64,000 nt of DNA, taken from a virus. Below are positions 1-41,011 of this stretch, piece after piece. The stretch's first letter is position 1, and each line of letters starts with the position of its first letter. The position numbers and the translations under genes are program-made. The DNA lies in the IMG/VR virus record IMGVR_UViG_3300020156_000022, positions 40,983 through 104,982 of that record; one strand, written 5' to 3'. Under the pieces are notes generated by a model. The model was not told the origin of the DNA. It saw nothing but the letters and a program-made list of their open reading frames with translations, and did no database searches.

Positions 1-131
1 TTGAAAGATAACCGATGATCCTTCGACCCTGAAACTTGAAGTTGAACATGTGTTTGAGATCAAACTATGCCACTATGGGCAATTAATTTTGGAGTAATTA
101 TCTGATAATCGATCTCATTCGGCTCAACTTG

Positions 132-207
132 TACTCCGTACCGGATTTGAACCGGTGCTCTTCTGATTGAGAATCAGATGTCTTAGACCAGACTAGACGA
201 ACGGAGC
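132..207 (-). tRNA. tRNA-Glu(CTC)
   Basis: Cloverleaf GCTCCGT/ACGGAGT, anticodon loop TTCTCAA, T-loop TTCAAAT. Confidence 0.92.
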
Positions 208-239
208 ATGTCTGTAAGCACTAGCTGCTTACAGGTATT

Positions 240-268
240 ACCTTACACTACCTTCAGGCTGTTGTCAA
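240..268 (-). promoter_or_regulatory. SigA/HrdB-type promoter
   Basis: TTGACA-17nt-TAAGGT upstream of tRNA-Glu. Confidence 0.75.
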
Positions 269-701
269 CCGCATCATAAAAAGATCGACTATCTCCGTAC
301 AGATATGCATCAACAATTCGAGGCACAGTAAAAAAAGTATTGGCAGGAAGGGCATTCATATTAAACCAACGCCATTCTTCACACTTATCAGGTTCCATTA
401 CCTTAGGGTTGCCTGAAAGCCATATGCATACCATGCCAATATCAACATAATGCTTAGGCATGTATTCAGTCAGATTAATAGTGGAAATAGGGATAGGCCG
501 AGTAGTCTTTACCTGAGAGCCAATTTCTTCTGCCATCTCACGGTAAGCTGTATCAGCAAACGACTCACCATACTCAAGTGTTCCTCCTGGAAGACCCCAT
601 TGCCCTGCACCATGAGAACCCTTACGCTTACCTAGCAGGATAAGCTCCGGCATTCTTACTACAAGAACACCAATACCTACCTTGGTAATATTAGACATCA
701 A
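243..701 (-). CDS. Nudix hydrolase (MutT/NUDT15-like)
   Basis: Nudix box GGTLEYGESFADTAYREMAEEIG; EPDKCEEWRWF. Confidence 0.9.
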   Translation of the reverse strand: MMSNITKVGIGVLVVRMPELILLGKRKGSHGAGQWGLPGGTLEYGESFADTAYREMAEEIGSQVKTTRPIPISTINLTEYMPKHYVDIGMVCIWLSGNPKVMEPDKCEEWRWFNMNALPANTFFTVPRIVDAYLYGDSRSFYDAVDNSLKVV

Positions 702-861
702 ACTCTCCGGCCTTTACACCTTTAATAAATTCACGCCATTCGCGTTTATCAAAGCATACATAGTCTCCGTCAGAATCTCTGACAAAAACAACATCAGCTT
801 CTATCAGAACTTCTACACAGCAATCATTACCACAAAAAGAGGATTTCTTATGCTCAGGCAT
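691..861 (-). CDS. DUF397 (BldB-like) small protein, 56 aa
   Basis: Manual translation MPEHKKSSFCGNDCCVEV...VFVRDSDG...FDKREWREFIKGVKAGEFDV fits the DUF397 pattern KSS..CVEV..VRDS..W..F..VK.GEFD. Confidence 0.85.
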   Translation of the reverse strand: MPEHKKSSFCGNDCCVEVLIEADVVFVRDSDGDYVCFDKREWREFIKGVKAGEFDV

Positions 862-992
862 TATTTTTCTTTTCGAAAGATATTCTTAGGGCGATCTTGC
901 CCTTTCTTAGTGCCACAATTCCAGCACTTTTTCTCTTCTTCTCGTACCTCAGTATGGCAATATTTACATCGCCAGTGATTAAACGTATTCAC
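861..992 (-). CDS. Zinc-ribbon microprotein (RanBP2-like), 43 aa
   Basis: Manual translation MNTFNHWRCKYCHTEVREEEKKCWNCGTKK...; overlaps neighbouring start/stop codons. Confidence 0.7.
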   Translation of the reverse strand: MNTFNHWRCKYCHTEVREEEKKCWNCGTKKGQDRPKNIFRKEK

Positions 993-1189
993 GTACCATC
1001 AGCTCCACAAAGGTTACAAGTTAATTGGGTACCGTTAGAATTCCAGGTATTCAGTTTATGCTCGCACATTACAGTCCAATAAGCACAAGCATCACATTCT
1101 TCAACCTGGATTGAACCCAGCCAGTTCTCCATATAAAAAACGGAGGCTGAAAAACCTCCGTGCTCATCATGTTCCTTCAGATAGGACAT
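989..1189 (-). CDS. Small Cys-rich hypothetical protein
   Basis: CDAC, CEH and CNLC motifs; tightly packed in operon. Confidence 0.7.
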   Translation of the reverse strand: MSYLKEHDEHGGFSASVFYMENWLGSIQVEECDACAYWTVMCEHKLNTWNSNGTQLTCNLCGADGT

Positions 1190-1504
1190 TTACTTAATAC
1201 CTAGTTCCTTCAGAATAAGGTCATGCTCTACTGCATGGAATACATGCTCAGGAATCTTAACTCGATAGACCATCTTTTCGAATTCGTAGCTAATACTCAT
1301 CTCTAATTCTTGATGCATACCATCGCTATCGAGAAAAGCATTAGCTGCTTGGAGACGCTTAGTAATTTCGGGCAAAGCTTCAGAACGAACTTTTACCCAT
1401 CGACCCTTATAAGTTCTGTCAAAAATGCCGAAGCCATTAGTGAATAACCCTATAACTAGGATAATTCCTAAGACTACTATTAGGGTTTCTAACCAATCAG
1501 ACAT
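1190..1504 (-). CDS. Hypothetical membrane-anchored protein (start MSDWLETL)
   Basis: N-terminal hydrophobic helix; ATG directly after tRNA-Leu 3' end; the longer ORF-track start lies inside the tRNA. Confidence 0.75.
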   Translation of the reverse strand: MSDWLETLIVVLGIILVIGLFTNGFGIFDRTYKGRWVKVRSEALPEITKRLQAANAFLDSDGMHQELEMSISYEFEKMVYRVKIPEHVFHAVEHDLILKELGIK

Positions 1505-1505
1505 G

Positions 1506-1587
1506 TACTCACGGTGGGATTCGAACCCACAATCCTTTCGGCGCAGCATTTTAAGTGCTGAGTGTATACCAGTTCCACCACGCGAGC
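1506..1587 (-). tRNA. tRNA-Leu(TAA), bldA-type anticodon
   Basis: Cloverleaf with long variable arm, loop CTTAAAA, T-loop TTCGAAT. Confidence 0.93.
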
Positions 1588-1589
1588 AT

Positions 1590-1687
1590 TGGTTTTGTAA
1601 TCAGGAATAGTATCAGCATACGTTCTGACGTTTACCTGAACCAGACCTATCAACAAAGGCCCGTTCTAACATTAAACTATTACAAAA
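1590..1687 (-). ncRNA. tRNA-like RNA with encoded CCA and ~30 nt insertion in place of the T-loop
   Basis: Acceptor TTTGTAA/TTACAAA-A-CCA, D arm, anticodon-like stem GGCCT/AGGTC, T stem TCAGG/CCTGA enclosing an extra hairpin. Confidence 0.6.
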
Positions 1688-1688
1688 G

Positions 1689-1764
1689 TAGCGTCGGAGA
1701 GATTCGAACTCATCACTGTCAGGTTCCTAAGACCTGTGCCTCCTACCAATTGGGCTACGACGCC
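1689..1764 (-). tRNA. tRNA-Leu(TAG), short variable loop
   Basis: GGCGTCG/CGACGCT, loop CTTAGGA, T-loop TTCGAAT. Confidence 0.88.
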
Positions 1765-1769
1765 ATTGT

Positions 1770-2336
1770 TCATTTATATAGATTACGCATCTCGGCAACT
1801 TGTGCTGAGGTCTTCGCAACTGCTGCACTTAAGTCTGCCATACTAGAAGCTAGCTTGTCAACACTTGTCTGCAACTTAGCTAAGGCAACTTTAGTGTCAT
1901 CCACATAAGGCCATGGCTGCTGCACACCTAGTCTAGCATCTGGAAGGTACTGCTCGTAAGGTGCTGGTTTATCTGGTGCAGGCTTTTCAAAGACCATCCA
2001 AGACTTAAATGTTCTTCCTGCACCCTTAAAGATATCATAAGCTATCTTAACATTAACTTCAGGATCACGCCATCTACCACCGTTAGCCTGAATCTTAGGA
2101 TACTGCCAACGACCTGACAACTGAAAGATACCGTGATCTCTGTTTCCTACAGAACCAGGATCACTAGTTAACGGTGCAGTAGTACGAGAAATAGATTCAG
2201 TATCCGCAGATGACTCAGCTAACGCCACAGCAACGGCTACTACTGCCTCAGAATCATTAGTTCCGGGAACAATAGTAGTTTTACTAAAGCCTGCTTTAAT
2301 GCATAGATCCGCAACTTCATGTGGTGATAGCTTCAT
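1770..2336 (-). CDS. Lysozyme-like/lytic transglycosylase domain protein with C-terminal coiled coil
   Basis: AVAVALAESS...DHGIFQL...DPEVNVKIAY motif of SLT/lysozyme-like fold. Confidence 0.75.
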   Translation of the reverse strand: MKLSPHEVADLCIKAGFSKTTIVPGTNDSEAVVAVAVALAESSADTESISRTTAPLTSDPGSVGNRDHGIFQLSGRWQYPKIQANGGRWRDPEVNVKIAYDIFKGAGRTFKSWMVFEKPAPDKPAPYEQYLPDARLGVQQPWPYVDDTKVALAKLQTSVDKLASSMADLSAAVAKTSAQVAEMRNLYK

Positions 2337-2344
2337 GTCAAGTC

Positions 2345-2500
2345 CTAATTCTTATCAGCATTCTTTAGTTGCTCAGAATACATCTCTCTACGACGGATAG
2401 CTTCTTTACTAAACATCGGCGGCTCAACCTTTGTAGCTTTACGTCTAATGTCTGCCATTTCTTTATCTGAAATGGTATTAGGAATTTTATTCTTTTTCAA
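2345..2500 (-). CDS. Small basic hypothetical protein, 51 aa
   Basis: Manual translation MKKNKIPNTISDKEMADIRRK...; TTG start overlapping upstream stop. Confidence 0.5.
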   Translation of the reverse strand: MKKNKIPNTISDKEMADIRRKATKVEPPMFSKEAIRRREMYSEQLKNADKN

Positions 2501-2625
2501 GACGATTTCCTTTTGTCAGATTTATTGGATCTTTTGACAGGATTTCTTCTTGCTTTATCTCCGTTAGCATCTACTCGAATAATCTTAATCTTACCGTCTG
2601 ATTGCTTTTCGGGGTACTGTGCCAA
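2497..2625 (-). CDS. Small basic hypothetical protein, 42 aa
   Basis: Manual translation MAQYPEKQSDGKIKIIRVD...; GAGGTG SD upstream. Confidence 0.5.
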   Translation of the reverse strand: MAQYPEKQSDGKIKIIRVDANGDKARRNPVKRSNKSDKRKSS

Positions 2626-2712
2626 GATAAAAACACCTCATAAATTAGCTTTTCTTGCACTTAGGGCAATATTTTTCCATGATTCTACTATACCATAAGT
2701 TTGGAGACCTTG

Positions 2713-2786
2713 CACGGATGGAAGGACTCGAACCCTCGACAACGCAGGTTTGGAAGCTGCTGCTCTAGCCGCTGAGCTACACCCGT
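2713..2786 (-). tRNA. tRNA-Trp(CCA)
   Basis: Cloverleaf, loop TTCCAAA, G73. Confidence 0.9.
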
Positions 2787-2926
2787 ATAAAATTTTAATT
2801 CAGAAGAAAGGTCCGTGTACCGACCTTAACGCCACCCATTGCTACACTTGGTGACTACTTCCTAAGTAGAGAGAAGACCAACTCTTCTATGCGCATCGCA
2901 GGACTCGACCTGCACTCTCTAATTTG

Positions 2927-3002
2927 TAGCGGAAGCCGGATTTGAACCGACGATCTCAACCTCATGAGGGTTGCGAGGACGACCGAACTCCTCTACTCCG
3001 CA
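2927..3002 (-). tRNA. tRNA-Met(CAT), initiator-like
   Basis: Unpaired first acceptor position, D arm GAGGAGTTCGGTCGTCCTC, loop CTCATGA. Confidence 0.85.
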
Positions 3003-3004
3003 AG

Positions 3005-3076
3005 TGCCGAGTACTAGAATTGAACTAGTGTTTCAGGGTTATGAATCCTGTGTTCTAACCATTGAACTAACCCGGC
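3005..3076 (-). tRNA. tRNA-Met/Ile2(CAT)
   Basis: GCCGGGT/ACTCGGC, loop TTCATAA. Confidence 0.85.
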
Positions 3077-3088
3077 TTGTTACCTACT

Positions 3089-3117
3089 ACCTTACCATGT
3101 TGCTCAGCCCTTGTCAA
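3089..3117 (-). promoter_or_regulatory. SigA/HrdB-type promoter
   Basis: TTGACA-17nt-TAAGGT upstream of tRNA pair. Confidence 0.75.
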
Positions 3118-3206
3118 CAGGTTTCTTGTTTGATTTAGTTAGATAATTGATAATGTATACTTTGCTGTCCGTAACAGGTTTACGTAGAATTCTGCCTTTA
3201 AGTTGC

Positions 3207-3362
3207 TCAGTATTCATAGCACTTATCTTTTTTCCTGTTTCGACGATATTTCCTGCGATTTTCATGCTTTGATGCTGCACTAGAACGACGAAGCTCAAGG
3301 AGCTGACGCTGTTCCTCAGCAGTGTATTTACGCTTGTAGTTCATCATCAGCTCCTTTCTCAT
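3207..3362 (-). CDS. Small Arg/Lys-rich protein, 51 aa
   Basis: Manual translation ...MNYKRKYTAEEQRQLLELRRSSAASKHENRRKYRRNRKKDKCYEY; promoter TTGACA-17-TAGTGT at 3370-3398. Confidence 0.7.
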   Translation of the reverse strand: MRKELMMNYKRKYTAEEQRQLLELRRSSAASKHENRRKYRRNRKKDKCYEY

Positions 3363-3372
3363 GCTGTCTACA

Positions 3373-3597
3373 CTAGCGGATCAGGTTCTGGCTGTCAACC
3401 CACTGTACAACGGTTTTTCCTTGGTGTCCATGGATATCAATAACGTCTTGAATATTCTTATAGAAGCATAAAGATGTTTTAGAGCCTATCCAACGCATAG
3501 CACAACTGCCATCACTAAACTGTACACCTTCAGTAACAATACCTGTTCCTGAAATTCCAGTTTCATCTTCTATTCGATTAAGGTAGAATCGTCGCAA
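3373..3597 (-). CDS. Hypothetical phage protein
   Basis: ORF with SD; EDETGISGTGIVTEGVQFSDG pattern typical of small phage proteins. Confidence 0.7.
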   Translation of the reverse strand: MRRFYLNRIEDETGISGTGIVTEGVQFSDGSCAMRWIGSKTSLCFYKNIQDVIDIHGHQGKTVVQWVDSQNLIR

Positions 3598-3708
3598 GAT
3601 TTGTCTTCTCTCCTCAAAGAATATTTTCTAAAGATTTCATCTAATTCACCAAGAAGATCATTTACACGTTCTTGGTCTTTAGAGTCTAATTCTTCCCAAT
3701 CTAGATAA

Positions 3709-4044
3709 TCATTGTTCGTCATCGCTAGACCTCATAACTACTATCATCCATTCACCTGGACCTATTTTAAGATCTGAAGCTTCTCTTTCAGATAAATAAC
3801 GACCTTGGTATGAATAGTTAGTAGCTTCAGCCATACGCATAACCATTTCAGCGTTGCTTGCTGAAATTATAGAATGTACTTCTAATACACCGTCAGTTAG
3901 GCACGCCCAAATTTCCCCGCACTCAAAACCACGTTGAAATTCATTATCAACAGTATCAAATTCTAAAAGAAAATCTGAGGAATCGGCATCTGCGCGGATT
4001 CCTCTTCTCTCAGAATTACTTTCTGATCTCATGGTGCCTAACAC
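3709..4044 (-). CDS. Hypothetical protein
   Basis: ORF in operon context. Confidence 0.65.
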   Translation of the reverse strand: MLGTMRSESNSERRGIRADADSSDFLLEFDTVDNEFQRGFECGEIWACLTDGVLEVHSIISASNAEMVMRMAEATNYSYQGRYLSEREASDLKIGPGEWMIVVMRSSDDEQ

Positions 4045-4049
4045 CTTTC

Positions 4050-4994
4050 TTATGCATGAATCTCCTGGTTACATGTCGGACACCTACCAGCTTTGGTCAA
4101 TGTGTCATGTAGTTCATTCTCGGCTAGCAGTATACCAGATCGAACGGATTCAATGCTAGTGTCTTGCTCAACTATCGTTCGCTGAGCCTGAGCAAGTCGT
4201 TTCAAAATATTTTTAAACTTATTAAATTTAATGTAAGCTTTTTCCAGCTCTGCTATGTCAGGGAGGGCTGGAATATTTCTTACTGCCTCAAGGGCCTCTG
4301 ATGCCTTCTTAGCCTTACCTATGAGGTTAGCAAGAAGGTCCATACGCGCCTGGGTAGTTGTTGCTTGGGCAAGTAAAGCTTCTACTTGAGTTATTGATTT
4401 AGCTTGTTGCATAACATTAGCATAATCACCAAGTTGAAGTAAAAGCTTATCTTGATCCTTTTTACGGATATTGACCAAGCCTGATGCATTCTTCGCTCGC
4501 CTACTAGCTTCTTTAACTGCATTGAAAATAGTAGACACATTAGTTAGTTCACCAAGTACACGAGCAACAGAACTAGAACCTTCTTTAAGCAAATAAGGAG
4601 CATCGAATTGCCCGGCAAAATTAATTGATGCTACTTCTTGCGTGCCTGGCGAGATACCCAAAGCTTCTGTAACTTCGGAAGGTACTTGACGATTAAGCTT
4701 AGTAAAGCGGGATTCTTCGCTACCAGACTTAGCAACTTTGTAAACACTACTACCACCTATTTCTCTCTCTATAGTTACTGATGTTTCACTAGTTTTAACA
4801 GTAATCGCTGATACTTTAGTTCCTCTAGTAATGTAATCGGAGTCTAGGCTATTCATAGCAATAGCTTTCATAGCTCTAGTAAGTGCCGATTTTCCACTAG
4901 AAGACGCACCTACGATTACTGTCAGCTTTCCAAATTCCAATTCTACATCACGTAGACTTTGGAAGTTTTTAATTCTGATGGACTCGATCAACAA
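4050..4994 (-). CDS. SbcC/Rad50-like ATPase, N-terminal half ending in zinc hook
   Basis: IKNFQS, Walker A GASSSGKS, Q-loop FAGQFD, coiled coil, terminal CPTC. Confidence 0.85.
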   Translation of the reverse strand: MLIESIRIKNFQSLRDVELEFGKLTVIVGASSSGKSALTRAMKAIAMNSLDSDYITRGTKVSAITVKTSETSVTIEREIGGSSVYKVAKSGSEESRFTKLNRQVPSEVTEALGISPGTQEVASINFAGQFDAPYLLKEGSSSVARVLGELTNVSTIFNAVKEASRRAKNASGLVNIRKKDQDKLLLQLGDYANVMQQAKSITQVEALLAQATTTQARMDLLANLIGKAKKASEALEAVRNIPALPDIAELEKAYIKFNKFKNILKRLAQAQRTIVEQDTSIESVRSGILLAENELHDTLTKAGRCPTCNQEIHA

Positions 4995-5182
4995 TAATCC
5001 TTAACATCAGAAGGATCAACGAAAATTACCTCAGCCTCAGGATCTTCGTCCCTTACCTTAGCTAGTTTAACAGGGTAATCAATAGTCTTCAACCACTTAC
5101 CCAATCTGTGCTGCACAGTAAAACCTGCTATGATATTATCCGAAGTGTCTAGCACTATCCATAATGATGTGGCTCTAGCCAT
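4988..5182 (-). CDS. Hypothetical protein
   Basis: ORF with GGGAGA SD. Confidence 0.65.
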   Translation of the reverse strand: MARATSLWIVLDTSDNIIAGFTVQHRLGKWLKTIDYPVKLAKVRDEDPEAEVIFVDPSDVKDYC

Positions 5183-5205
5183 GTTGTTCTCCCATATAAG
5201 TATTA

Positions 5206-5379
5206 TTACCTATCTGCCGGATTGAGCCCATCTATTAGTGTACAGGTTGGCTTGCAATACTCCTTTTCTCCAACTTTGCACACAGGACACTTACCTTTAT
5301 TCGGCCTTAGCTTATACCCATTGATTTCTTTTAATGGCTTTCTAAATGGATTCTTTATTAGCGTCTTTCTATTTTGCAA
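5206..5379 (-). CDS. Cys-rich microprotein, ~57 aa (start uncertain)
   Basis: Manual translation ...KGKCPVCKVGEKEYCKPTCTLIDGLNPADR. Confidence 0.5.
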   Translation of the reverse strand: MQNRKTLIKNPFRKPLKEINGYKLRPNKGKCPVCKVGEKEYCKPTCTLIDGLNPADR

Positions 5380-5453
5380 TCAGGGCAAACATACATGTCA
5401 CTAGAATTTCCACTTTTGTGCTTGGCGCAAGCTACTAATATTTTTACAGTCAA
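5358..5453 (-). CDS. Zinc-ribbon microprotein, 31 aa
   Basis: MTVKILVACAKHKSGNSSDMYVCPDCKIERR; GGGGAG SD. Confidence 0.55.
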   Translation of the reverse strand: MTVKILVACAKHKSGNSSDMYVCPDCKIERR

Positions 5454-5472
5454 GACATCTCCCTAAACAAAC

Positions 5473-5500
5473 ATAGCCACCTGAATATTCAGGTGGCTAT
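5473..5500. terminator. Palindromic terminator-like hairpin
   Basis: ATAGCCACCTGAATATTCAGGTGGCTAT perfect inverted repeat followed by GTTTGTTT on minus strand. Confidence 0.7.
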
Positions 5501-5566
5501 TCTCAAAGTTCTGCTTTCCACGTCCTACGTCTGGCAATTTGCTTATCTTTAGGCATTTCAGTCTCC

Positions 5567-5662
5567 CTAGATAGGTCTGCCACAAGCTAGACAAATAAGG
5601 TTTCCTCGCTTATCCATCATAACTGTCCTACCGTGGTCTTTGCAAGCATCATGCTTACCCAT
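5567..5662 (-). CDS. Zinc-ribbon microprotein, 31 aa
   Basis: MGKHDACKDHGRTVMMDKRGNLICLACGRPI; GAGG SD. Confidence 0.6.
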   Translation of the reverse strand: MGKHDACKDHGRTVMMDKRGNLICLACGRPI

Positions 5663-5664
5663 GC

Positions 5665-5844
5665 CTAGACCTCGATAAACCCTGTACCTTTACAGCCTTT
5701 ACAAGAACCTTTAGCTGTTTGCCCGTTATTACAGCCCGCACAACGCAACTTATTGCCTTTTTGCATTCGCTTCTTTAAAGGATACCTGTTATCTCGCGGT
5801 GCGACCTCGTGTGGGGGTGTATTACCCTCTTTATAGCGAGCCAT
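5665..5844 (-). CDS. DnaJ-type zinc-finger microprotein, 59 aa
   Basis: ...RCAGCNNGQTAKGSCKGCKGTGFIEV; TAATG coupling with upstream ORF. Confidence 0.65.
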   Translation of the reverse strand: MARYKEGNTPPHEVAPRDNRYPLKKRMQKGNKLRCAGCNNGQTAKGSCKGCKGTGFIEV

Positions 5845-6023
5845 TAGGATTTATCTCCCTTATGGGAACCCTTATCACGGGAATGGTCTGGCTTACTGCC
5901 ACCACCAGTAGTTCCTCTACGACTAGTGTTAGTTCCTTTAGTCCAACGCCTTTCCACTTTCTGGGCATATTCCTCAAGCTGATCGGCAGACAGGTTCTTC
6001 TTATCGTCATCCTTTTTAGTCAT
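5844..6023 (-). CDS. Small hydrophilic protein, 59 aa
   Basis: MTKKDDDKKNLSADQLEEYAQKVERRW...; ATG directly after tRNA-Arg 3' end. Confidence 0.6.
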   Translation of the reverse strand: MTKKDDDKKNLSADQLEEYAQKVERRWTKGTNTSRRGTTGGGSKPDHSRDKGSHKGDKS

Positions 6024-6024
6024 G

Positions 6025-6097
6025 CACCCCTGACAGGATTCGAACCTGCGATTTACAGTTTAGAAGACTGTTGAGTTATCCGCTACTCTACAGGGGC
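6025..6097 (-). tRNA. tRNA-Arg(TCT)
   Basis: GCCCCTG/CAGGGGT, loop CTTCTAA. Confidence 0.9.
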
Positions 6098-6145
6098 ATT
6101 AAATTAGTTTTGAGTTTAAAGCGACCAAAACTATAAACAAACTTC

Positions 6146-6215
6146 GTGCATCGAGCGGGTTCGAACCGTATCTCTGGGTATGACCCCAGCGCATTTCCCT
6201 AATGCTACTCGATAC
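6146..6215 (-). pseudogene. Degenerate tRNA-like gene (CAT anticodon)
   Basis: Acceptor and D arm present, irregular anticodon loop, T stem of only 3 bp. Confidence 0.55.
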
Positions 6216-6364
6216 TAACATGGTGCCAGCCATGCTTTTACCATTACGAAAGACCCGGCTGCTACCGCATACCACACTTAATGCTGGCACACTAAGCTGA
6301 TCACGTTCGTACTCTCGGATTCCGTTTCTTAGCGTACGAAAGTCACCCGAGTATAACCAAACTG

Positions 6365-6436
6365 TACGCCGAGAGAATTACGATATCTCGTCCCGCGAGT
6401 TAAAAGCTCGCTGCTCTGCCTCTGAGCTACCGGCGC
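6365..6436 (-). tRNA. tRNA-Lys(TTT), atypical T-loop
   Basis: Loop CTTTTAA; T arm GAGAT-ATCGTAA-TTCTC. Confidence 0.85.
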
Positions 6437-6481
6437 TAGTCTTACAGAATACTACCAAGAACGTCTACATTTTGCTGAAAG

Positions 6482-6554
6482 TACGCCATAAGGGACTCGA
6501 ACCCTTGACCCACCGATTAAGAGTCGGTTGTCTCTGCCGCTGAGCTAATGGCGC
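6482..6554 (-). tRNA. tRNA-Lys(CTT)
   Basis: GCGCCAT/ATGGCGT, loop CTCTTAA. Confidence 0.92.
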
Positions 6555-6654
6555 TTGGTGAGATATTTGTTAGCCTCTCACTGGCATCAGCCTCACCCAT
6601 TTTACATCACGGAGGACATGATGTCTAGCTACTAGAAAGTTGACATGACATACC

Positions 6655-6710
6655 TGCACCAGCTAGGAATCGAACCCAGTATGCCACTGAACAGGTTTGC
6701 AACCCTGTTT
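6655..6710 (-). pseudogene. 5'-truncated tRNA remnant (anticodon and T arms only)
   Basis: ACAGG-GTTGCAAA-CCTGT and CTGGG-TTCGATT-CCTAG; no D arm or 5' acceptor strand. Confidence 0.55.
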
Positions 6711-6712
6711 TG

Positions 6713-6784
6713 TAGGGGCAGGGAATTTCGAAATCCCGACCTGCGGTATGTAACACCGCTGCTCTGCCTCTGAGCTACGCCCCC
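6713..6784 (-). tRNA. tRNA-Val(TAC)
   Basis: GGGGGCG/TGCCCCT, loop GTTACAT. Confidence 0.88.
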
Positions 6785-6945
6785 AAGCTACGTTTGAATT
6801 TATACCATCCAAACTGTTTTGCCGTTCTTCTTTTATGGCAGTTAGCACATCGTACCACACACTTCTCAATTTCTGCAAGTACTCGATCCCATTTAATTCC
6901 GTTTCTTACAGATTTACCTATATCAAAACTTTTTTCTTCTGGAAT
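6775..6945 (-). pseudogene. C-terminal remnant of an HNH endonuclease
   Basis: Frame reads PEEKSFDIGK...WDRVLAEIEKCVVRCANCHKRRTAKQFGW; N-terminal half and start codon missing. Confidence 0.7.
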
Positions 6946-7132
6946 TAGAAGGCTAGAACCGACTAAGGAAACTAGCCTTGATTGGCTTGCTGATAAAGCT
7001 TTACTAGCTGAACCTTCATTATGGGGTACTTTATCTGACAGTTTAGGGTATTGTATGAACTACCAGTTAACACAAACTAAGTCTAATGGTACATCCTTAG
7101 ATTTTATGTGTGCTTGAACCTGGCAGGATCTA

Positions 7133-7162
7133 ACTATAACTTAGGACTGCTTCCCCTGTCAA
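7133..7162 (-). promoter_or_regulatory. SigA/HrdB-type promoter
   Basis: TTGACA-18nt-TATAGT. Confidence 0.7.
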
Positions 7163-7330
7163 GCCAGGCTCGGCTGCCACTATTACTGCATATCGTTAAG
7201 CCTGTGCTAGGTCATTCGCCTACTTGCAGCATTGAGCTTATAGTTATCATACGTGCTTTGTCAACAGCCTTACTGTATACGCGCGCCGTTCGACGTAGTT
7301 TATTACATTGTGGAATGTGATATACTTGCG

Positions 7331-7402
7331 TGGAGAAATAGGGAGTTGAACCCTATCTTGAACTTTGCAAAAGTCCCGTGCAACCCTTAACACTTTATCC
7401 CC
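7331..7402 (-). tRNA. tRNA-Ala(TGC)
   Basis: G3:U70 pair, loop TTTGCAA, A73. Confidence 0.85.
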
Positions 7403-7454
7403 ATAGTAAGCGCAAGTGCGTCCAGTTTGCCCGGTCCTCGCGCTTACATCTACT

Positions 7455-7483
7455 ACTTTACATCGTCTTGGCTAGCTTGTCAA
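7455..7483 (-). promoter_or_regulatory. SigA/HrdB-type promoter
   Basis: TTGACA-17nt-TAAAGT. Confidence 0.75.
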
Positions 7484-7644
7484 CCCTCTAGACTCATAGA
7501 ATTTGCCAGAAGGATGTAGCCCTTTGCTGCTTCAGCCAATGCTTGAAGTCGATTCGCTTGAGCTTCACTCAAGTTGTAGCCCTGCGAGTCTTTTACCTTC
7601 TTCAGGCATTCCTCTGCTGACCTGAGTGCTTCATTTCGTGTCAT
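7480..7644 (-). CDS. Small leaderless hypothetical protein, 54 aa
   Basis: MTRNEALRSAEECLKKVK...; ATG 6 nt after the -10 of TTGACG-17-TAGGCT (7651-7679). Confidence 0.7.
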   Translation of the reverse strand: MTRNEALRSAEECLKKVKDSQGYNLSEAQANRLQALAEAAKGYILLANSMSLEG

Positions 7645-7692
7645 GCACCTAGCCTACAGGACTCTGACAGGATCGTCAAGGCTACGTATCTG

Positions 7693-7896
7693 TTATTTCT
7701 TAAATCTTCCTCGGCCTATAGCTCGTTGACTAATCAAATCAAGTAACTGCTCACGAATATCCATATTACGATTAAGAATTTTACGAGTATTAGCGATAGT
7801 AGTCTGACAGTTTGCTATGGCCGTCTCGACATCTAATAACTCTTCAGACAACTCTTTATCTGACCAATCACCGTAATCTGGTTGTTCAGTAAGCAT
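7693..7896 (-). CDS. Hypothetical coiled-coil protein
   Basis: ORF with SD, operon context. Confidence 0.65.
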   Translation of the reverse strand: MLTEQPDYGDWSDKELSEELLDVETAIANCQTTIANTRKILNRNMDIREQLLDLISQRAIGRGRFKK

Positions 7897-7900
7897 TTAT

Positions 7901-8506
7901 CTATTCCTTTTCATTTGGGTAAACATCATAGATCTTAAAATTATCAAAGGATCGGCTTATAGTTGGCCCAGCCTGGTACTGATAGTGCGATCCAGCTGCT
8001 CTTGAACCATACAACAAAGTAGTCGGCTCTGGTAAGTGGTAGAAGCCAAGTTGACTAACTTTCATACCTGGCCATAACAACAAAGGCATAGTTCCACTAT
8101 TACTTAATTCTAAGGTAATTTGCCCTTCAAATCCTGGATCAATAAACCCCGCAGTAGCATGAATAACCAACCCTAGCCTGCCTAAAGAACTTTTACCCTC
8201 AAGCTTAGCGGCTATGTTAGCACCTAATGCAATAGTTTCAAAGGTACAACCTAGCACAAATGCTCCTGGCTCTAATACAAATGCAGAACCCTTTGGAACA
8301 AATACATCTGTAAAGTAATCAGTTGAGTCTTCTTTAGGATCTACCAACGGCGCGTCCGCAGGGGAATCAAATTGTAACTGTACCTTAAACTCAGGAGAAA
8401 GTGTCATATCATAACTGGCAGGCTGAATTAGCTCTTCCCTGAAAGGCTGGATGATAATATTTTGGAATCTAATCTCTTCAAGAATTCCTCTATTAGATAC
8501 TAGCAT
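7901..8506 (-). CDS. dcd: dCTP deaminase
   Basis: IQPASYD, LEGKSSLGRLGL, HATAGFIDPGFEGQITLE. Confidence 0.95.
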   Translation of the reverse strand: MLVSNRGILEEIRFQNIIIQPFREELIQPASYDMTLSPEFKVQLQFDSPADAPLVDPKEDSTDYFTDVFVPKGSAFVLEPGAFVLGCTFETIALGANIAAKLEGKSSLGRLGLVIHATAGFIDPGFEGQITLELSNSGTMPLLLWPGMKVSQLGFYHLPEPTTLLYGSRAAGSHYQYQAGPTISRSFDNFKIYDVYPNEKE

Positions 8507-8732
8507 GATCTTCTCTCCATTCTAGTTTCACCTTGCCGCTTTCATGGAAAGCAAGATCAAGTATGGTATTATTATATACCTTTACCAGATCAATCTCAAT
8601 CTTTTTACCTAAAGGTACATATTTTCTTAGCAATGCCGCTGCGACAGCCTCATAGATTCTTACTTTTTCTTCAAGCACATCAAAAGACCTGGATGCTAGG
8701 TACTCATCCAGGTCTATAAATTCATTTGACAT
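8493..8732 (-). CDS. Hypothetical protein
   Basis: ORF with AAGG SD. Confidence 0.65.
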   Translation of the reverse strand: MSNEFIDLDEYLASRSFDVLEEKVRIYEAVAAALLRKYVPLGKKIEIDLVKVYNNTILDLAFHESGKVKLEWREDHASI

Positions 8733-8823
8733 TACTTACCTTTCTCAAGAAAATAGGAGCCGCATCGACAAACAACTTGCGGATCTTTGCCTACAAGTTA
8801 TCCTGGAGGTTGGCTCCTATTTG

Positions 8824-9174
8824 CTAGTATGCCTTATATTCAGCATGTCCAGCACTGACCATTCGATCATTGATGCTAGGAGTTTTAGTAGGGTCTTCTC
8901 CCCAAAGCCATAACTCTCCTAAATATCGGCCATACTTTTCTTTTTTATCCTTGGTAGTCATAACATATAGATACTTAAAACTACCATCAGGATTAGTAAG
9001 TAATTTCAATAACCATGCCCTGGCATTCTTACCGGCTTGTGTGGGTAGCTCAGGAGCATTAATTCTGTTGAATCTAATATGCATGTCTTGAAGAAGATCA
9101 CAACCAGCGTCTCGCCTTATTGTGATTGTATCAGCATCATAGACAGTTAAGATTTCAGCAGGGTAATCATACAT
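8824..9174 (-). CDS. Thermonuclease (SNase-like) family protein
   Basis: VYDADTI, IRFNRINAPE, KEKYGRYLG, INDRMVSAGHA. Confidence 0.88.
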   Translation of the reverse strand: MYDYPAEILTVYDADTITIRRDAGCDLLQDMHIRFNRINAPELPTQAGKNARAWLLKLLTNPDGSFKYLYVMTTKDKKEKYGRYLGELWLWGEDPTKTPSINDRMVSAGHAEYKAY

Positions 9175-9296
9175 ATTTATCTCCCATCGTATAAGAGATA
9201 AATCGGTAATAATTGAGGGTTGCAACTTCCAGTACAGCCGTGCAGCTTTCCCGGTTAACCAGATAGCTTTCTCACCTGTTCGTGGACCTCAATAAG

Positions 9297-9375
9297 AGCA
9301 GATAGGCGGAATCGAACCGCAGACATAAGACGCCTTTTGCAGAGGCGCGGCTATCACCAATAACCTTCTATCTGC
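9297..9375 (-). tRNA. tRNA-Cys(GCA) with non-canonical 8/4 fold
   Basis: 8 bp acceptor GCAGATAG/CTATCTGC, 4 bp T stem, long D stem, loop CTGCAAA, U73. Confidence 0.8.
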
Positions 9376-9410
9376 ACGTAAAGAATAATATTATTCTTTA
9401 CTAATAGAAT

Positions 9411-9521
9411 TTACTTTTTACCAGTACCTTTACATGCATTACAATCTATAGGAGGAAGACTATTACGTTCAAAAAACCCTCTACCTCTACATGACATACA
9501 TATTTCTTTTTCTTTTTCCAT
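9411..9521 (-). CDS. DnaJ-type zinc-finger microprotein, 36 aa
   Basis: MEKEKEICMSCRGRGFFERNSLPPIDCNACKGTGKK, two CxxCxGxG repeats; ATG directly after tRNA-Thr. Confidence 0.75.
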   Translation of the reverse strand: MEKEKEICMSCRGRGFFERNSLPPIDCNACKGTGKK

Positions 9522-9522
9522 G

Positions 9523-9597
9523 AGCCACCAGAGAGAATCGAACTCTCGACCTTTTCCGTACCAAGGAAACACTCTGACCAAACTGAGCTATGGCGGC
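9523..9597 (-). tRNA. tRNA-Thr(GGT)
   Basis: GCCGCCA/TGGTGGC, loop TTGGTAC. Confidence 0.92.
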
Positions 9598-9763: not shown

Positions 9764-9922
9764 TTAGTTAGACAATCTTTTTTGTTTTGTGCCGCAAGGC
9801 ACATGAGTAACTACCTTATTCTTGATTCTCCATCCACGAGTGCCTTTGCAATTGTCGCACACCCTAGGACCATTCTCATCAATGAGTCTTCCTCCGATTG
9901 TTGCATTATCTGTATTTGCCAT
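9764..9922 (-). CDS. Zinc-binding microprotein, 52 aa
   Basis: MANTDNATIGG...VCDNCKGTRGW...THVPCGTK; ATG directly after tRNA-Gly. Confidence 0.65.
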   Translation of the reverse strand: MANTDNATIGGRLIDENGPRVCDNCKGTRGWRIKNKVVTHVPCGTKQKRLSN

Positions 9923-10243: not shown

Positions 10244-10360
10244 TTATAGAAGTTTCTTGTCTATATAACCATTCTTACACTTGCCAGGACAATCTTTTAT
10301 TTTGCCTGCTTTAACTATAAAGCCCCTACCTCTACATGTCAAGCACATGACCAAGGCCAT
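10244..10360 (-). CDS. DnaJ-type zinc-finger microprotein, 38 aa
   Basis: MALVMCLTCRGRGFIVKAGKIKDCPGKCKNGYIDKKLL; GAGG SD. Confidence 0.7.
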   Translation of the reverse strand: MALVMCLTCRGRGFIVKAGKIKDCPGKCKNGYIDKKLL

Positions 10361-10989: not shown

Positions 10990-11065
10990 CCCGAGCAACA
11001 GGATTCGAACCTGCATGTTTCCGTTAACCTTTCAACTGGTTCGTAGCCAGAGGGTATACGCCCGG
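10990..11065 (-). tRNA. Atypical tRNA-Arg(ACG) lacking a D arm at the normal position
   Basis: CCGGGCG/TGCTCGG, CTGG-CTACGAA-CCAG, canonical T arm. Confidence 0.65.
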
Positions 11066-40186: not shown

Positions 40187-41011
40187 TTATCCGTTAATTA
40201 GTTTCTTTACTGTCATATAAGATGCTCCACGCATTACTGTCTGATCTGCATGAGATGTACTCTGTGCGTGCTGCAACACTACTTCACCAGCATTGGAACC
40301 TATAGGCAAAATAAATCTTTCCTGGATGGCTGTCCAATACATCGCGCTGGCCAGACCGTAGGCTACTTCAGTAGTCATCTGGCTTGCGTTAGTTCGCATT
40401 AAAGTATTACCGTTATCTGTTGAGTTTACGGCGGGTCCAGTACATGCTCGTAATCCCACTGTTCCAGAAGGGACTTTCCAAGCAAGTTTGATATTACCAT
40501 TCTGCCCGGAGCAAATAGCAAATAACTCTACGCGATACTTGGTATTTGCAGAAGCACTAAACCTTAGAACAGTATCGTCATTCAATGTGGTGTCGTTGGA
40601 ATAGCCCTGGTCGGTGTTCTTATAGATAGTGAACTCTGGCTCAAAAGCAGAATCAGGCAGCCCGTGCACACCTGGAGAAACATTAGCTATGTGGTCTTGA
40701 GCCTCTTGAAAATCTCTTGCGGAAACTCCATGAACTACAGGTGCTCCCTGAGCGTGAGATTTAGCTGTGGTTCCGTCTTGTCCACGAGTAATGAGGAATG
40801 TCCCCGGTGATCCGCCCTTAGGACCAGTTACAGTAACCAGCTCTTCATTAGAAGTATCTGGATCTAATCTTAAAGTATAGGGGTATTGTGATGGAAATCC
40901 TGTACTGGTGCTTAGAGCTACTTCTGTAGCTCCGGTAGAAATTCCACCTACTGTTGCAATAGTGGACAGTGCTGCTGTATTACTGTAATAGCGCATTATA
41001 TGTTCTCCCAA
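40187..41011 (-). CDS. Minor tail protein
   Basis: EELVTVT..ITRGQDGTTAKSHAQGA.V.H motif; position in tail module. Confidence 0.75.
   Translation of the reverse strand: MGEHIMRYYSNTAALSTIATVGGISTGATEVALSTSTGFPSQYPYTLRLDPDTSNEELVTVTGPKGGSPGTFLITRGQDGTTAKSHAQGAPVVHGVSARDFQEAQDHIANVSPGVHGLPDSAFEPEFTIYKNTDQGYSNDTTLNDDTVLRFSASANTKYRVELFAICSGQNGNIKLAWKVPSGTVGLRACTGPAVNSTDNGNTLMRTNASQMTTEVAYGLASAMYWTAIQERFILPIGSNAGEVVLQHAQSTSHADQTVMRGASYMTVKKLING

What the first reader, a model, noticed from the sequence alone, without database searches (positions are those of the whole stretch)
9297..9375. tRNA-Cys with an 8/4 fold and tRNA-Sec-like D arm
Seen: 8 bp acceptor, 4 bp T stem, G rather than U at position 8, up to 7 bp D stem (GGTTATT/GATAGCC) with a tiny loop, 6 bp anticodon stem, GCA anticodon and U73. 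Known: 8/4 cloverleaves are described for rare selC*-type tRNA-Cys and allo-tRNAs. Its presence in a phage array beside many Cys-rich microproteins is notable.
Basis: partly seen in the sequence, partly recalled or inferred. Interest (0 to 1): 0.7.

Follow-up and report, generated by a model that had tools for sequence, protein, structure and literature searches.

The report
Phage tRNA-Cys with 8/4 cloverleaf
This soil phage carries a real cysteine tRNA whose acceptor stem is one pair longer and T stem one pair shorter than normal, with a selenocysteine-tRNA-like core. The same odd shape is conserved, unremarked, in relatives including more than 50 cultured Streptomyces phage records.

Summary
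On the minus strand, 9375..9297 is a tRNA-Cys(GCA) with these features:
- a perfect 8-bp acceptor stem, in which G8 pairs with C;
- a 2-nt linker;
- a 6-bp D stem with a 5-nt loop;
- a 5-bp anticodon stem extended by a G·U pair;
- a stemless 9-nt variable loop;
- a 4-bp T stem and U73.

ARAGORN calls it. Rfam's general tRNA model misses it, and its best Rfam match is tRNA-Sec (39 bits, below that family's threshold).

I assembled 17 homologues: syntenic soil viral contigs, other IMG/VR contigs, an actinobacterial tRNA array, Streptomyces phage pSt2308 and cluster-BE Streptomyces phages. The eighth acceptor pair forms in 17/17 with six pair types. The rival fifth T-stem pair forms in only 3/17. 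As a control, 27 cellular Actinomycetes tRNA-Cys were all canonical 7/5.

The anticodon GCA and U73 are invariant, and the acceptor/T stack stays at 12 bp. It is therefore most likely an ordinary Cys-decoding elongator tRNA charged by host CysRS and carried by EF-Tu.

It is not tRNA-Sec, selC* or allo-tRNA: it has no V-arm, no bulge, no UCA anticodon, and the contig encodes no SelB or CysRS.

Verdict: a new variant of the known 8/4 tRNA kind. Why it has this shape is unknown.

The parts
9297..9375 (-). Whole tRNA-Cys(GCA) gene, 79 nt from G1 to discriminator U73. C at 9296 follows and no CCA is encoded.
   Evidence: ARAGORN; model R2 87.6 bits; Rfam tRNA-Sec 39.1 bits, general tRNA model below 29 bits; MFE fold.
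9368..9375 (-). Acceptor stem 5' strand, GCAGAUAG (positions 1-8). G8 is paired, so there is no free U8.
   Evidence: Sequence. The eighth pair is paired in 17/17 homologues with 6 pair types.
9298..9305 (-). Acceptor stem 3' strand, CUAUCUGC.
   Evidence: Sequence; helix 1 is 100% paired and 7 of 8 pairs show changes on both sides.
9297..9297 (-). Discriminator U73, the major CysRS identity element.
   Evidence: Sequence; T in all 17 aligned homologues. Its identity role is from PMC5389517.
9366..9367 (-). Two-nucleotide linker AA between the acceptor and D stems.
   Evidence: Sequence and fold.
9349..9365 (-). D arm: 6-bp stem GGUUAU/AUAGCC (third pair U.G) and 5-nt loop UGGUG carrying the G18-G19 equivalent.
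   Evidence: Fold. The five inner pairs are paired in 15-17 of 17 homologues and four of them change on both sides. The outermost pair holds only in the window's subgroup (9/17).
9330..9348 (-). Anticodon arm: 5 Watson-Crick pairs plus G28.U46 (the 26:44 equivalent) and loop CUGCAAA.
   Evidence: Fold; helix 3 is 99% paired; the G.U pair is kept in 15/17, with A-U and G-C once each.
9338..9340 (-). Anticodon GCA, which reads UGC and UGU.
   Evidence: ARAGORN; invariant in 17/17.
9321..9329 (-). Variable loop CUUAUGUCU: 9 unpaired nt, with no V-arm stem.
   Evidence: Fold; homologues have 5-14 nt here and only L108 has a small hairpin.
9306..9320 (-). T arm: 4-bp stem GCGG/CCGC and loop UUCGAUU.
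   Evidence: Sequence; helix 4 is 100% paired and 3 of 4 pairs change on both sides; a fifth pair is unpaired in 14/17.

Best explanation
This is a genuine, selectively maintained phage gene for an elongator tRNA-Cys(GCA) that folds as an 8/4 cloverleaf rather than the standard 7/5.

Its core resembles tRNA-Sec. The D stem is long with a short loop, so the usual U8:A14 and 15:48 tertiary contacts cannot form. The anticodon stem is extended by a 26:44 G.U pair. The variable loop is enlarged but has no stem.

Inferred mechanism:
- It is transcribed with the rest of the minus-strand tRNA array.
- RNase P trims it; RNase P measures the 12-bp acceptor/T stack, which is unchanged.
- The host CCA-adding enzyme adds CCA.
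- Host CysRS charges it with cysteine through U73 and the GCA anticodon.
- EF-Tu delivers it, because 8+4 = 12 bp is the standard length, unlike the 13 bp of tRNA-Sec.
- It decodes UGU/UGC for phage proteins.

It belongs to a conserved family found so far in tRNA arrays of actinophage-type viruses and actinobacterial contigs. The cellular Actinomycetes tRNA-Cys I sampled are canonical.

Shown here: the gene, the fold, its conservation and covariation, its distribution, and the absence of dedicated partner genes in the contig. Inferred: charging, EF-Tu use, expression, and an actinobacterial host.
For: Fold:
- The MFE and centroid structures are the 8/4 cloverleaf, z = -3.4. ARAGORN also draws it 8/4.

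Covariation in 17 homologues (A6):
- 97.3% of cells are paired, against 62% in shuffles.
- 20 of 24 pairs change on both sides.
- The covariation score is 0.94 against 0.23 in shuffles (0/500 shuffles reach it) and at most 0.18 for slid registers.
- The eighth acceptor pair is GC6 AU5 CG2 GU2 UA1 UG1, with none unpaired.
- Swapping it for a fifth T-stem pair leaves 14 of 17 unpaired.
- An independent count anchored on the T loop gives the same result.

Control:
- 27 published cellular Actinomycetes tRNA-Cys are all 72 nt with U8. The eighth pair is possible in 0/27 and the fifth T pair in 27/27.

Synteny:
- The gene sits after tRNA-Thr and before a nuclease and dCTP deaminase in L002, L003 and L004. 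L202 keeps the upstream tRNA order.

Identity elements:
- U73 and GCA are invariant, G1:C72 occurs in 16/17, and the T loop and D-loop GG are kept.
- Literature: U73 and GCA are the main CysRS identity elements, and 8/4 tRNAs work in E. coli translation (PMC5389517).

Other:
- It is the only tRNA-Cys, and the only 8/4 call, among 29 tRNAs in the 105-kb contig.
- The contig has no CysRS, EF-Tu/SelB-type GTPase or CCA-adding enzyme.
- One contig from a soil metatranscriptome library matches 9327-9544 without a mismatch. This is only a weak hint of transcription.
Against: - There is no direct evidence of expression, processing, aminoacylation or ribosomal use. The RNA-library contig could be carried-over DNA.
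- The host is unknown. The actinobacterial assignment rests on indirect links: the best isolate-phage DNA polymerase hit is only 38% identical, to a Microbacterium phage, plus shared RNA elements and this tRNA family.
- E. coli-type CysRS also uses the G15:G48 / A13:A22 core, which this architecture cannot present. Charging therefore depends on a host enzyme that does not need that core.
- The contig is about 77% complete, so a partner gene could lie in the missing part.
- Alignments A4-A6 were fitted to an 8/4 model, which favours that structure. The key columns 8, 72 and 88 are gap-free and were checked independently.
Confidence: 0.72

Rival explanations
1. Anti-defence variant. The tRNA still decodes Cys, but its non-canonical body (8/4, no U8:A14 or 15:48 core, U31-A39 closing pair) exists so that a host tRNA-Cys-directed nuclease or a modification-dependent defence cannot recognise it. 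Phage Cys decoding would then continue while host tRNA-Cys is depleted.
For: - The phage family differs consistently in shape from sampled cellular Actinomycetes tRNA-Cys: 17/17 against 0/27 for the eighth pair.
- The pair closing the anticodon loop is U-A in 16/17 family members. It is mostly C-G in the cellular set.
- Published hypothesis: phage tRNAs resist host anticodon nucleases such as VapC (PMC10264068). That paper cites Barth et al. 2021 on M. tuberculosis VapC4. That VapC4 targets tRNA-Cys is from my own knowledge; the paper was not held.
Against: - The 7-nt anticodon loop CUGCAAA is identical to the cellular one, so the loop-mutation signature described in PMC10264068 is absent.
- No nuclease is known to read the acceptor/T split.
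- The other 28 tRNAs of this phage are not reshaped.
- The host and its defences are unknown.
Confidence: 0.13
2. Non-translational tRNA mimic. The RNA keeps a tRNA shape but acts as a decoy, sponge, primer or processing signal and is not used on the ribosome.
For: - The same array holds several aberrant tRNA-like elements. One is 6146-6215(-), with an 8-bp acceptor, a 3-bp T stem and a 6-nt anticodon loop.
- Some natural 8/4 or irregular tRNAs were charged but not used in translation (PMC5389517).
- Rfam's general tRNA model fails on it.
Against: - Everything needed for decoding is kept in 17/17: a 7-nt loop with U33 and GCA, U73, the T loop, the D-loop GG and the 12-bp stack.
- It is the contig's only tRNA-Cys, within an array that supplies 18 of the 20 amino acids (no Phe, Gln or Asn tRNA called).
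Confidence: 0.1
3. Ordinary 7/5 tRNA-Cys with a mismatched 49:65 pair. The 8/4 drawing would then be an artefact of folding software.
For: 8/4 and 7/5 differ by reassigning a single nucleotide. Three of 17 homologues (L209, L176, L245) could form either pair.
Against: - The eighth pair covaries through six pair types with no mismatch in 17. The alternative pair is unpaired in 14 of 17.
- A 7/5 fold would put G, A, C or U at position 8 and leave three linker nucleotides.
- Cellular controls behave the opposite way, 27/27.
Confidence: 0.03
4. A tRNA-Sec or selC*-type tRNA working with a SelB-like factor for recoding.
For: - tRNA-Sec is the best Rfam family for the window copy (39.1 bits) and for homologues (35-54 bits).
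- The copy in L209 even passes the tRNA-Sec gathering score.
Against: - The anticodon is GCA, not UCA, in 17/17, and the discriminator is U, not G.
- The stack is 12 bp, not 13, and there is no V-arm.
- The contig has no EF-Tu/SelB-type GTPase and no CysRS.
Confidence: 0.02

Closest known systems
selC* tRNA-Cys (Mukai et al. 2017, NAR, PMC5389517)
   Same: - Cysteine identity: U73, a GCA anticodon in part of that family, and mostly G1:C72.
- An 8-bp acceptor with a 4-bp T stem, and a longer anticodon stem.
- It surfaces as a near-hit of the tRNA-Sec covariance model.
   Different: - selC* has a long V-arm. Its delta-proteobacterial 8/4 forms carry an A51a bulge and often a UCA anticodon.
- selC* occurs in anaerobic bacteria that have complete Sec machinery, sometimes next to selB* and cysS*.
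- Here the variable loop is 9 unpaired nt, there is no bulge, GCA is invariant, the gene is phage-borne, and the contig has no SelB-like or CysRS gene.
Phage and bacterial (8/4) tRNA-Ser and tRNA-His, and allo-tRNAs (PMC5389517)
   Same: - An 8/4 split of a 12-bp acceptor branch.
- Location in phage tRNA gene clusters.
- A tRNA-Sec-like long D stem with a short loop, as in allo-tRNAs.
   Different: - Different amino-acid identity: Ser via V-arm plus G73/U73, and His.
- Those phages were linked to alpha-proteobacteria and marine samples.
- That paper reports no phage 8/4 tRNA-Cys. Its supplement was not available to me.
tRNA-Cys genes annotated in cluster-BE Streptomyces phages (Stanwilliamsviridae: Mildred21, Jay2Jay, Coruscant, Tomas and others) and the unannotated copy in Streptomyces phage pSt2308
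   Same: - They match the same covariance model at 48-58 bits.
- They share the 8-bp acceptor, 4-bp T stem, extended anticodon stem, GCA and U73.
- In the cluster-BE phages the gene is adjacent to tRNA-Thr genes in a large tRNA array.
   Different: - They are shorter, 74-75 nt, with a 1-nt linker, a 5-bp D stem, a 4-5-nt D loop and a 5-7-nt variable loop.
- Sequence identity to the window copy is too low for blastn to find them from it.
- The records label them simply tRNA-Cys, without structural comment.
Bacterial tRNA-Sec (Rfam RF01852)
   Same: An 8-bp acceptor, a 6-bp D stem with a small loop, a 6-bp anticodon stem, and no U8.
   Different: - tRNA-Sec has a 5-bp T stem (13-bp branch), a UCA anticodon, G73 and a long V-arm.
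- The window copy scores 39.1 bits against a gathering score of 47.

Membership tests
Canonical class I elongator tRNA (Rfam RF00005) | Reaches the curated gathering score (29 bits) of the general tRNA model | tested here: not met
   There is no RF00005 hit at 9297-9375 at gathering threshold, while 17 other tRNAs in 1-25000 pass. tRNA-Sec outranks it in the clan.
Canonical class I elongator tRNA (Rfam RF00005) | 7-bp acceptor, 5-bp T stem and unpaired U8 | tested here: not met
   Position 8 is G paired with C. A 49:65 pair would be U:C. Across the family the eighth pair forms in 17/17 and the fifth T pair in 3/17.
tRNA-Cys (functional identity) | GCA anticodon in a 7-nt loop with U33 | tested here: met
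   The loop is CUGCAAA and is invariant in 17 homologues.
tRNA-Cys (functional identity) | Discriminator U73 | tested here: met
   T at 9297 on the minus strand; 17/17. Its role in CysRS identity is from PMC5389517.
tRNA-Cys (functional identity) | Aminoacylation with cysteine by CysRS | not testable with these tools
   This needs in vitro charging or in vivo acid-gel/mass analysis.
8/4 tRNAs (Mukai 2017) | 12-bp acceptor branch split into an 8-bp acceptor and a 4-bp T stem | tested here: met
   Sequence and MFE; covariation.
selC* tRNA-Cys | Long V-arm (stem-loop) | tested here: not met
   The variable loop has 9 unpaired nt and no stem in the MFE or centroid structure. Homologues have 5-14 nt, and only L108 has a hairpin.
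selC* tRNA-Cys | Genomic association with selenocysteine machinery, selB* or cysS* | tested here: not met
   The 105-kb contig (77% complete) has no PF00009 or PF01406 match, and the controls were positive in 14/14 genomes.
selC* tRNA-Cys | A51a bulge in the T stem (delta-proteobacterial 8/4 forms) | tested here: not met
   The T stem GCGG/CCGC is uninterrupted. Helix 4 is 100% paired with no insertion in 17 sequences.
tRNA-Sec (RF01852) | Gathering score of 47 bits, UCA anticodon, G73 and a 13-bp branch | tested here: not met
   39.1 bits; anticodon GCA, U73 and an 8+4 branch.
allo-tRNA | Long V-arm giving SerRS identity, together with an 8/4 or 9/3 branch | tested here: not met
   There is no V-arm. 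A ninth pair is impossible because A9 faces C.

The most novel reading that the evidence does not exclude
The 8/4, tRNA-Sec-like body is an adaptive disguise. Under this reading, actinophages maintain a tRNA-Cys that host CysRS, EF-Tu and the ribosome accept, but that a host tRNA-Cys-directed nuclease or other tRNA-sensing defence does not recognise. That would secure translation of Cys codons, including those of the many zinc-finger micro-ORFs interleaved with the array, while host tRNA-Cys is being destroyed. It would be the first case of defence evasion through tRNA body architecture rather than anticodon-loop mutation.
Probability: 0.12. Interest if true: 0.8.

Novelty: new variant of a known kind. 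Interest (0 to 1): 0.5.

Why it matters
8/4 tRNAs were described in 2017 as rare exceptions to the near-universal 7/5 rule. In phages only Ser and His species were reported. The only 8/4 tRNA-Cys, selC*, is tied to selenocysteine machinery in anaerobes.

This finding adds a third kind: a V-arm-less, tRNA-Sec-cored tRNA-Cys confined so far to phage-type tRNA arrays. It contrasts with uniformly canonical tRNA-Cys in the sampled cellular Actinomycetes.

- **Tractability.** The same architecture sits, labelled as plain tRNA-Cys, in more than 50 records of cultured Streptomyces phages. Charging, EF-Tu use and the reason for the shape can therefore be tested at the bench.
- **Annotation.** General tRNA models miss these genes. 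ARAGORN missed three of the five copies in the window's own lineage (L002, L004, L202). One homologue passes Rfam's tRNA-Sec threshold and could be mislabelled selC.
- **Engineering.** Such tRNAs are also candidate scaffolds for orthogonal tRNA design.

Tried and rejected
- An exact 21-nt match of the T arm plus acceptor in IMG/VR found nothing.
- blastn of the window tRNA against isolated phages hit only the T-arm region of pSt2308. blastn with the pSt2308 copy found only itself.
- MAFFT misaligned the 5' halves (A1 and A2). I therefore built covariance models R1 and R2 and used model-guided alignments, then cross-checked them with a T-loop-anchored script.
It mostly returned 7/5 tRNA-Cys with short V-arm hairpins, plus non-tRNA matches.
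- The genome-collection scan returned mostly chance matches. The exceptions were actinobacterial arrays (L209, L217) and a degenerate copy in Actinoplanes with two acceptor mismatches.
- The Pfam families for CysRS, the EF-Tu/SelB GTPase domain and the CCA-adding enzyme were not found in the contig. The contig is about 77% complete, so absence is not proven.
- Read laying gave only two RNA-library contigs, and the parts they do not cover say nothing either way. I do not claim expression.
- Microbacterium phages Magritte and A3Wally have 7/5 tRNA-Cys, so the trait is not general to actinophages.
- I rejected the seventh D-stem pair and a 9/3 fold.
- The Mukai 2017 supplement and Barth et al. 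2021 were not held.
- Two unpublished genomes (G027, G035) appeared in the class sample.

Full report
**1. What is there**

The window is part of a 104,982-bp IMG/VR viral contig, estimated 77% complete and recovered from soil metagenomes. It is about 42% G+C, and in the first 30 kb of the window nearly all the long ORFs lie on the minus strand. It encodes phage-type DNA polymerase, a UvsX-like recombinase, a DnaB-like helicase and tail proteins.

ARAGORN finds 20 tRNA genes in the window and 29 in the contig, all on the minus strand.

Read on the minus strand, the RNA is:
- acceptor GCAGAUAG;
- linker AA;
- D arm GGUUAU-UGGUG-AUAGCC;
- anticodon arm GCGCCU-CUGCAAA-AGGCGU;
- variable loop CUUAUGUCU;
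- T arm GCGG-UUCGAUU-CCGC;
- acceptor 3' strand CUAUCUGC;
- discriminator U, followed by C (no CCA encoded).

RNAfold returns exactly this 8/4 cloverleaf as both MFE and centroid: -30.6 kcal/mol against -20.8 ± 2.9 for shuffles, with 0 of 200 shuffles as stable. ARAGORN draws 8/4 as well, and this is its only 8/4 call among the 29 tRNAs.

Rfam's general tRNA model does not reach threshold here, although it finds 17 neighbouring tRNAs. The best Rfam family is tRNA-Sec at 39.1 bits, below its gathering score of 47.

**2. Is the 8/4 fold real?**

A single sequence cannot separate 8/4 from a 7/5 fold with one mismatch, so I collected homologues.

*Syntenic relatives.* The neighbouring dCTP deaminase led to three related viral contigs, L002, L003 and L004, at 64-78% protein identity. 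They have a closely similar tRNA order. Each carries a homologue in the same slot, after tRNA-Thr and before a nuclease and the deaminase. ARAGORN called only one of the three.

*IMG/VR and the genome collection.* Degenerate pattern scans of IMG/VR added L202, another relative whose ARAGORN-called tRNA order upstream of the slot (Arg, Asp, Gly, Gly, Thr) matches; ARAGORN missed its tRNA-Cys too. They also added unrelated contigs L108, L152, L169 and L176. The same pattern over one genome per prokaryotic species returned almost nothing. The exceptions were dense tRNA arrays on actinobacterial MAG contigs (Rugosimonospora L209, Trebonia L217) and a degenerate copy in Actinoplanes.

*Isolated phages.* A covariance model built from the family (R1, then R2) found an unannotated copy in Streptomyces phage pSt2308. 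It also showed that the annotated tRNA-Cys of Streptomyces phage Mildred21 has the same architecture. blastn with the Mildred21 gene then found 55 records of cluster-BE (Stanwilliamsviridae) Streptomyces phages. Nearly all of those records label it simply tRNA-Cys. I checked five diverged representatives.

*Pair counts.* On the 17-sequence alignment (A6):
- 97.3% of pair cells are standard pairs, against 62% in shuffles.
- 20 of 24 pairs change on both sides.
- The covariation score is 0.94, against 0.23 for shuffles (0 of 500 reach it) and at most 0.18 for slid registers.
- The decisive eighth acceptor pair is GC 6, AU 5, CG 2, GU 2, UA 1, UG 1, with none unpaired.
- Replacing it with a fifth T-stem pair leaves 14 of 17 sequences unpaired.

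The alignment was fitted to an 8/4 model, so I repeated the count with a script anchored only on the T loop and the 3' end. The result was the same.

*Negative control.* I sampled 151 Actinomycetes genomes with R2. The 27 published cellular tRNA-Cys I extracted are all 72 nt with U8. The fifth T pair is possible in 27/27 and an eighth acceptor pair in 0/27.

The 8/4 fold is therefore a conserved, selected property of this family and not a software artefact.

**3. The rest of the architecture**

*D stem.* The five inner pairs are paired in 15-17 of the 17 sequences. Four of them change on both sides; the third is mostly U.G or C-G. For example, the pair closing the loop is CG 10, AU 4, GC 2, UA 1. 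The outermost, sixth pair holds in the window's subgroup but is mismatched in the cluster-BE phages, which have a 1-nt linker and a 5-bp stem.

As in tRNA-Sec, such a D arm leaves no free nucleotides for U8:A14 or a 15:48 Levitt pair. That point rests on established tRNA-Sec structural knowledge and is an inference for this RNA.

*Anticodon stem.* The sixth pair is the 26:44 equivalent. It is G.U in 15/17, with A-U and G-C once each.

*Variable loop.* It is 9 nt here and 5-14 nt in the family. It has no stem except for a small hairpin in L108.

*Rfam across the family.* tRNA-Sec is the top Rfam family for the homologues tested, at 35-54 bits. The Rugosimonospora copy exceeds the tRNA-Sec gathering score despite having GCA and U73.

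**4. What it most likely does**

All features needed for cysteine decoding are invariant or nearly so: loop CUGCAAA with U33 and GCA, U73, G1:C72 in 16/17, T loop UUCGAUU (minor variants in some homologues), and GG in the D loop of all but pSt2308.

U73 and GCA are the principal CysRS identity elements. Natural 8/4 tRNAs, including an 8/4 tRNA-Cys, function in E. coli translation, and the 8-bp acceptor was important for that tRNA-Cys (PMC5389517). The acceptor/T stack is 12 bp as in all EF-Tu substrates, not the 13 bp of tRNA-Sec.

The contig encodes no CysRS, no EF-Tu/SelB-type GTPase and no CCA-adding enzyme. The RNA must therefore use host enzymes.

It is the contig's only tRNA-Cys. The phage uses UGU over UGC at 142:83 in long ORFs, with Cys at 0.94% and GC3 at 0.33. 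There are also about 14-18 small ORFs with four or more cysteines in the array region, several with DnaJ-type CxxCxGxG motifs.

My best reading is an ordinary supply function, a phage-borne elongator tRNA-Cys carried in an unusual body (confidence 0.72).

Expression is not shown. One 218-nt contig from a soil metatranscriptome library matches 9327-9544 perfectly. It spans the 5' part of tRNA-Cys, the spacer and the 3' end of tRNA-Thr. DNA carry-over cannot be excluded.

**5. Why the odd shape?**

This is unknown. The options are listed below.
- **Neutral inheritance.** The scaffold may be ancient and simply move among actinophage tRNA arrays.
- **Descent from, or convergence on, a tRNA-Sec-like scaffold.**
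- **Evasion of host factors that recognise tRNA-Cys.** The published evasion signature is anticodon-loop mutation (PMC10264068). It is absent here, because the loop is identical to the cellular one. Only the closing pair differs: U-A in 16/17 family members against mostly C-G in cells. I give the anti-defence idea about 0.12-0.13.
- **Non-translational mimic.** I give this about 0.10. It is kept alive by other aberrant tRNA-like elements in the same array.
- **Plain 7/5 fold or a Sec/SelB role.** Both are essentially excluded.

**6. Comparison with what is known**

The closest described classes are in Mukai et al. 2017 (PMC5389517): phage 8/4 tRNA-Ser and tRNA-His, allo-tRNAs and selC* tRNA-Cys. 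This RNA shares the 8/4 split, the Sec-like D and anticodon arms, and cysteine identity.

It fails the defining features of selC*, which are a long V-arm, an A51a bulge in the 8/4 forms, a Sec-machinery context and anaerobic hosts. It also fails those of allo-tRNA (a V-arm giving Ser identity) and tRNA-Sec (see the membership table).

I found no description of a phage 8/4 tRNA-Cys in that paper, in a 2020 review of non-canonical tRNAs, in a 2022 survey of cysteine-encoding systems, or among the papers returned by a search on cluster-BE Streptomyces phages (titles and abstracts only). Supplementary data of the 2017 paper were not available, so prior mention there cannot be ruled out.

The genes themselves are already annotated as tRNA-Cys in many Streptomyces phage records. 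What is new is recognising their shared architecture.

**7. Host**

The host is probably a soil actinobacterium. The evidence is listed below.
- The best isolate-phage hit for the DNA polymerase is Microbacterium phage Magritte, at 38%.
- A 60-nt element at about 11000-11060 is 92-93% identical to intergenic DNA of Streptomyces and Microbacterium phages.
- This tRNA family is shared with Streptomyces phages and actinobacterial arrays.

All of this is indirect.

**8. Verdict**

Novelty is a new variant of a known kind. Interest is 0.5: a solid and experimentally tractable addition to the short list of natural non-7/5 tRNAs, but not a new principle unless the shape proves adaptive.

Noticed in passing
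window 6146-6215 (-); L002:9876-9947; L004:12380-12449: This is a tRNA-like element with an 8-bp acceptor, only a 3-bp T stem and a 6-nt anticodon loop. ARAGORN reports it as 'tRNA-???' with a 2-nt anticodon. Homologues have a 7-nt loop GUGCAAA with A73 (L002, called tRNA-Cys) or the 6-nt loop GCGAAA (L004). All are preceded by a conserved hairpin motif (GGUAAAAGCA-GGCUGGCACC-UGUUA-like). In L003 the hairpin is present but the tRNA-like element is absent.
   Followed up: partly
window about 11000-11060 (-): A 60-nt stretch upstream of the array is 92-93% identical to unannotated intergenic DNA in cluster-BE Streptomyces phages (Mildred21, Braelyn, Navo and others) and in Microbacterium phages (A3Wally). 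ARAGORN and Rfam call nothing here. In relatives L002-L004 the first tRNA of the array at this end is tRNA-Arg(ACG).
   Followed up: partly
contig C1:40694-40771 and 40847-40921 (just upstream of the window start): ARAGORN reports two tRNA-like genes with 8-nt anticodon loops, that is 4-nt anticodons 'gatt' and 'atat'.
   Followed up: no
window 861-1189, 5206-5844, 9411-9581, 9764-9922, 10244-10360 (-): Small ORFs of 31-66 aa with 3-5 cysteines in paired CxxC knuckles are interleaved with the tRNAs. Three have DnaJ-type CxxCxGxG motifs. About 14-18 such ORFs lie in the contig's array region, and TGT outnumbers TGC 57:27 in them.
   Followed up: partly
L209:3479-3554 (Rugosimonospora MAG contig) and L217 (Trebonia MAG): These actinobacterial contigs carry dense arrays of 12-16 tRNAs that include a Sec-like tRNA-Cys. 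The L209 copy scores 53.8 bits on Rfam tRNA-Sec, above the gathering score of 47, although it has GCA and U73. Automated pipelines could mislabel it as selC.
   Followed up: partly
L108 (IMGVR_UViG_3300009506_000002), 1-8925: This viral contig has 33 tRNA genes in 9 kb. They include an 8/4 tRNA-Cys(GCA) with a short V hairpin, a second tRNA called Cys(ACA), and a tRNA with a UUA anticodon, a possible ochre suppressor.
   Followed up: no
window 9294-9328, run X4: Another soil metagenome holds contigs of a related phage. Its tRNA-Cys anticodon stem differs from that of L003 by a compensatory change (GCUGGU/ACCAGU against GCUCGU/ACGAGU). A 6-nt insertion also occurs at 9502.
   Followed up: no
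window tRNA 3' ends, e.g. 9296: In the ARAGORN listing most of the contig's tRNAs are followed by a single C rather than CCA, and no CCA-adding enzyme (PF01743) was found in the contig. Maturation must therefore rely on the host enzyme.
   Followed up: partly
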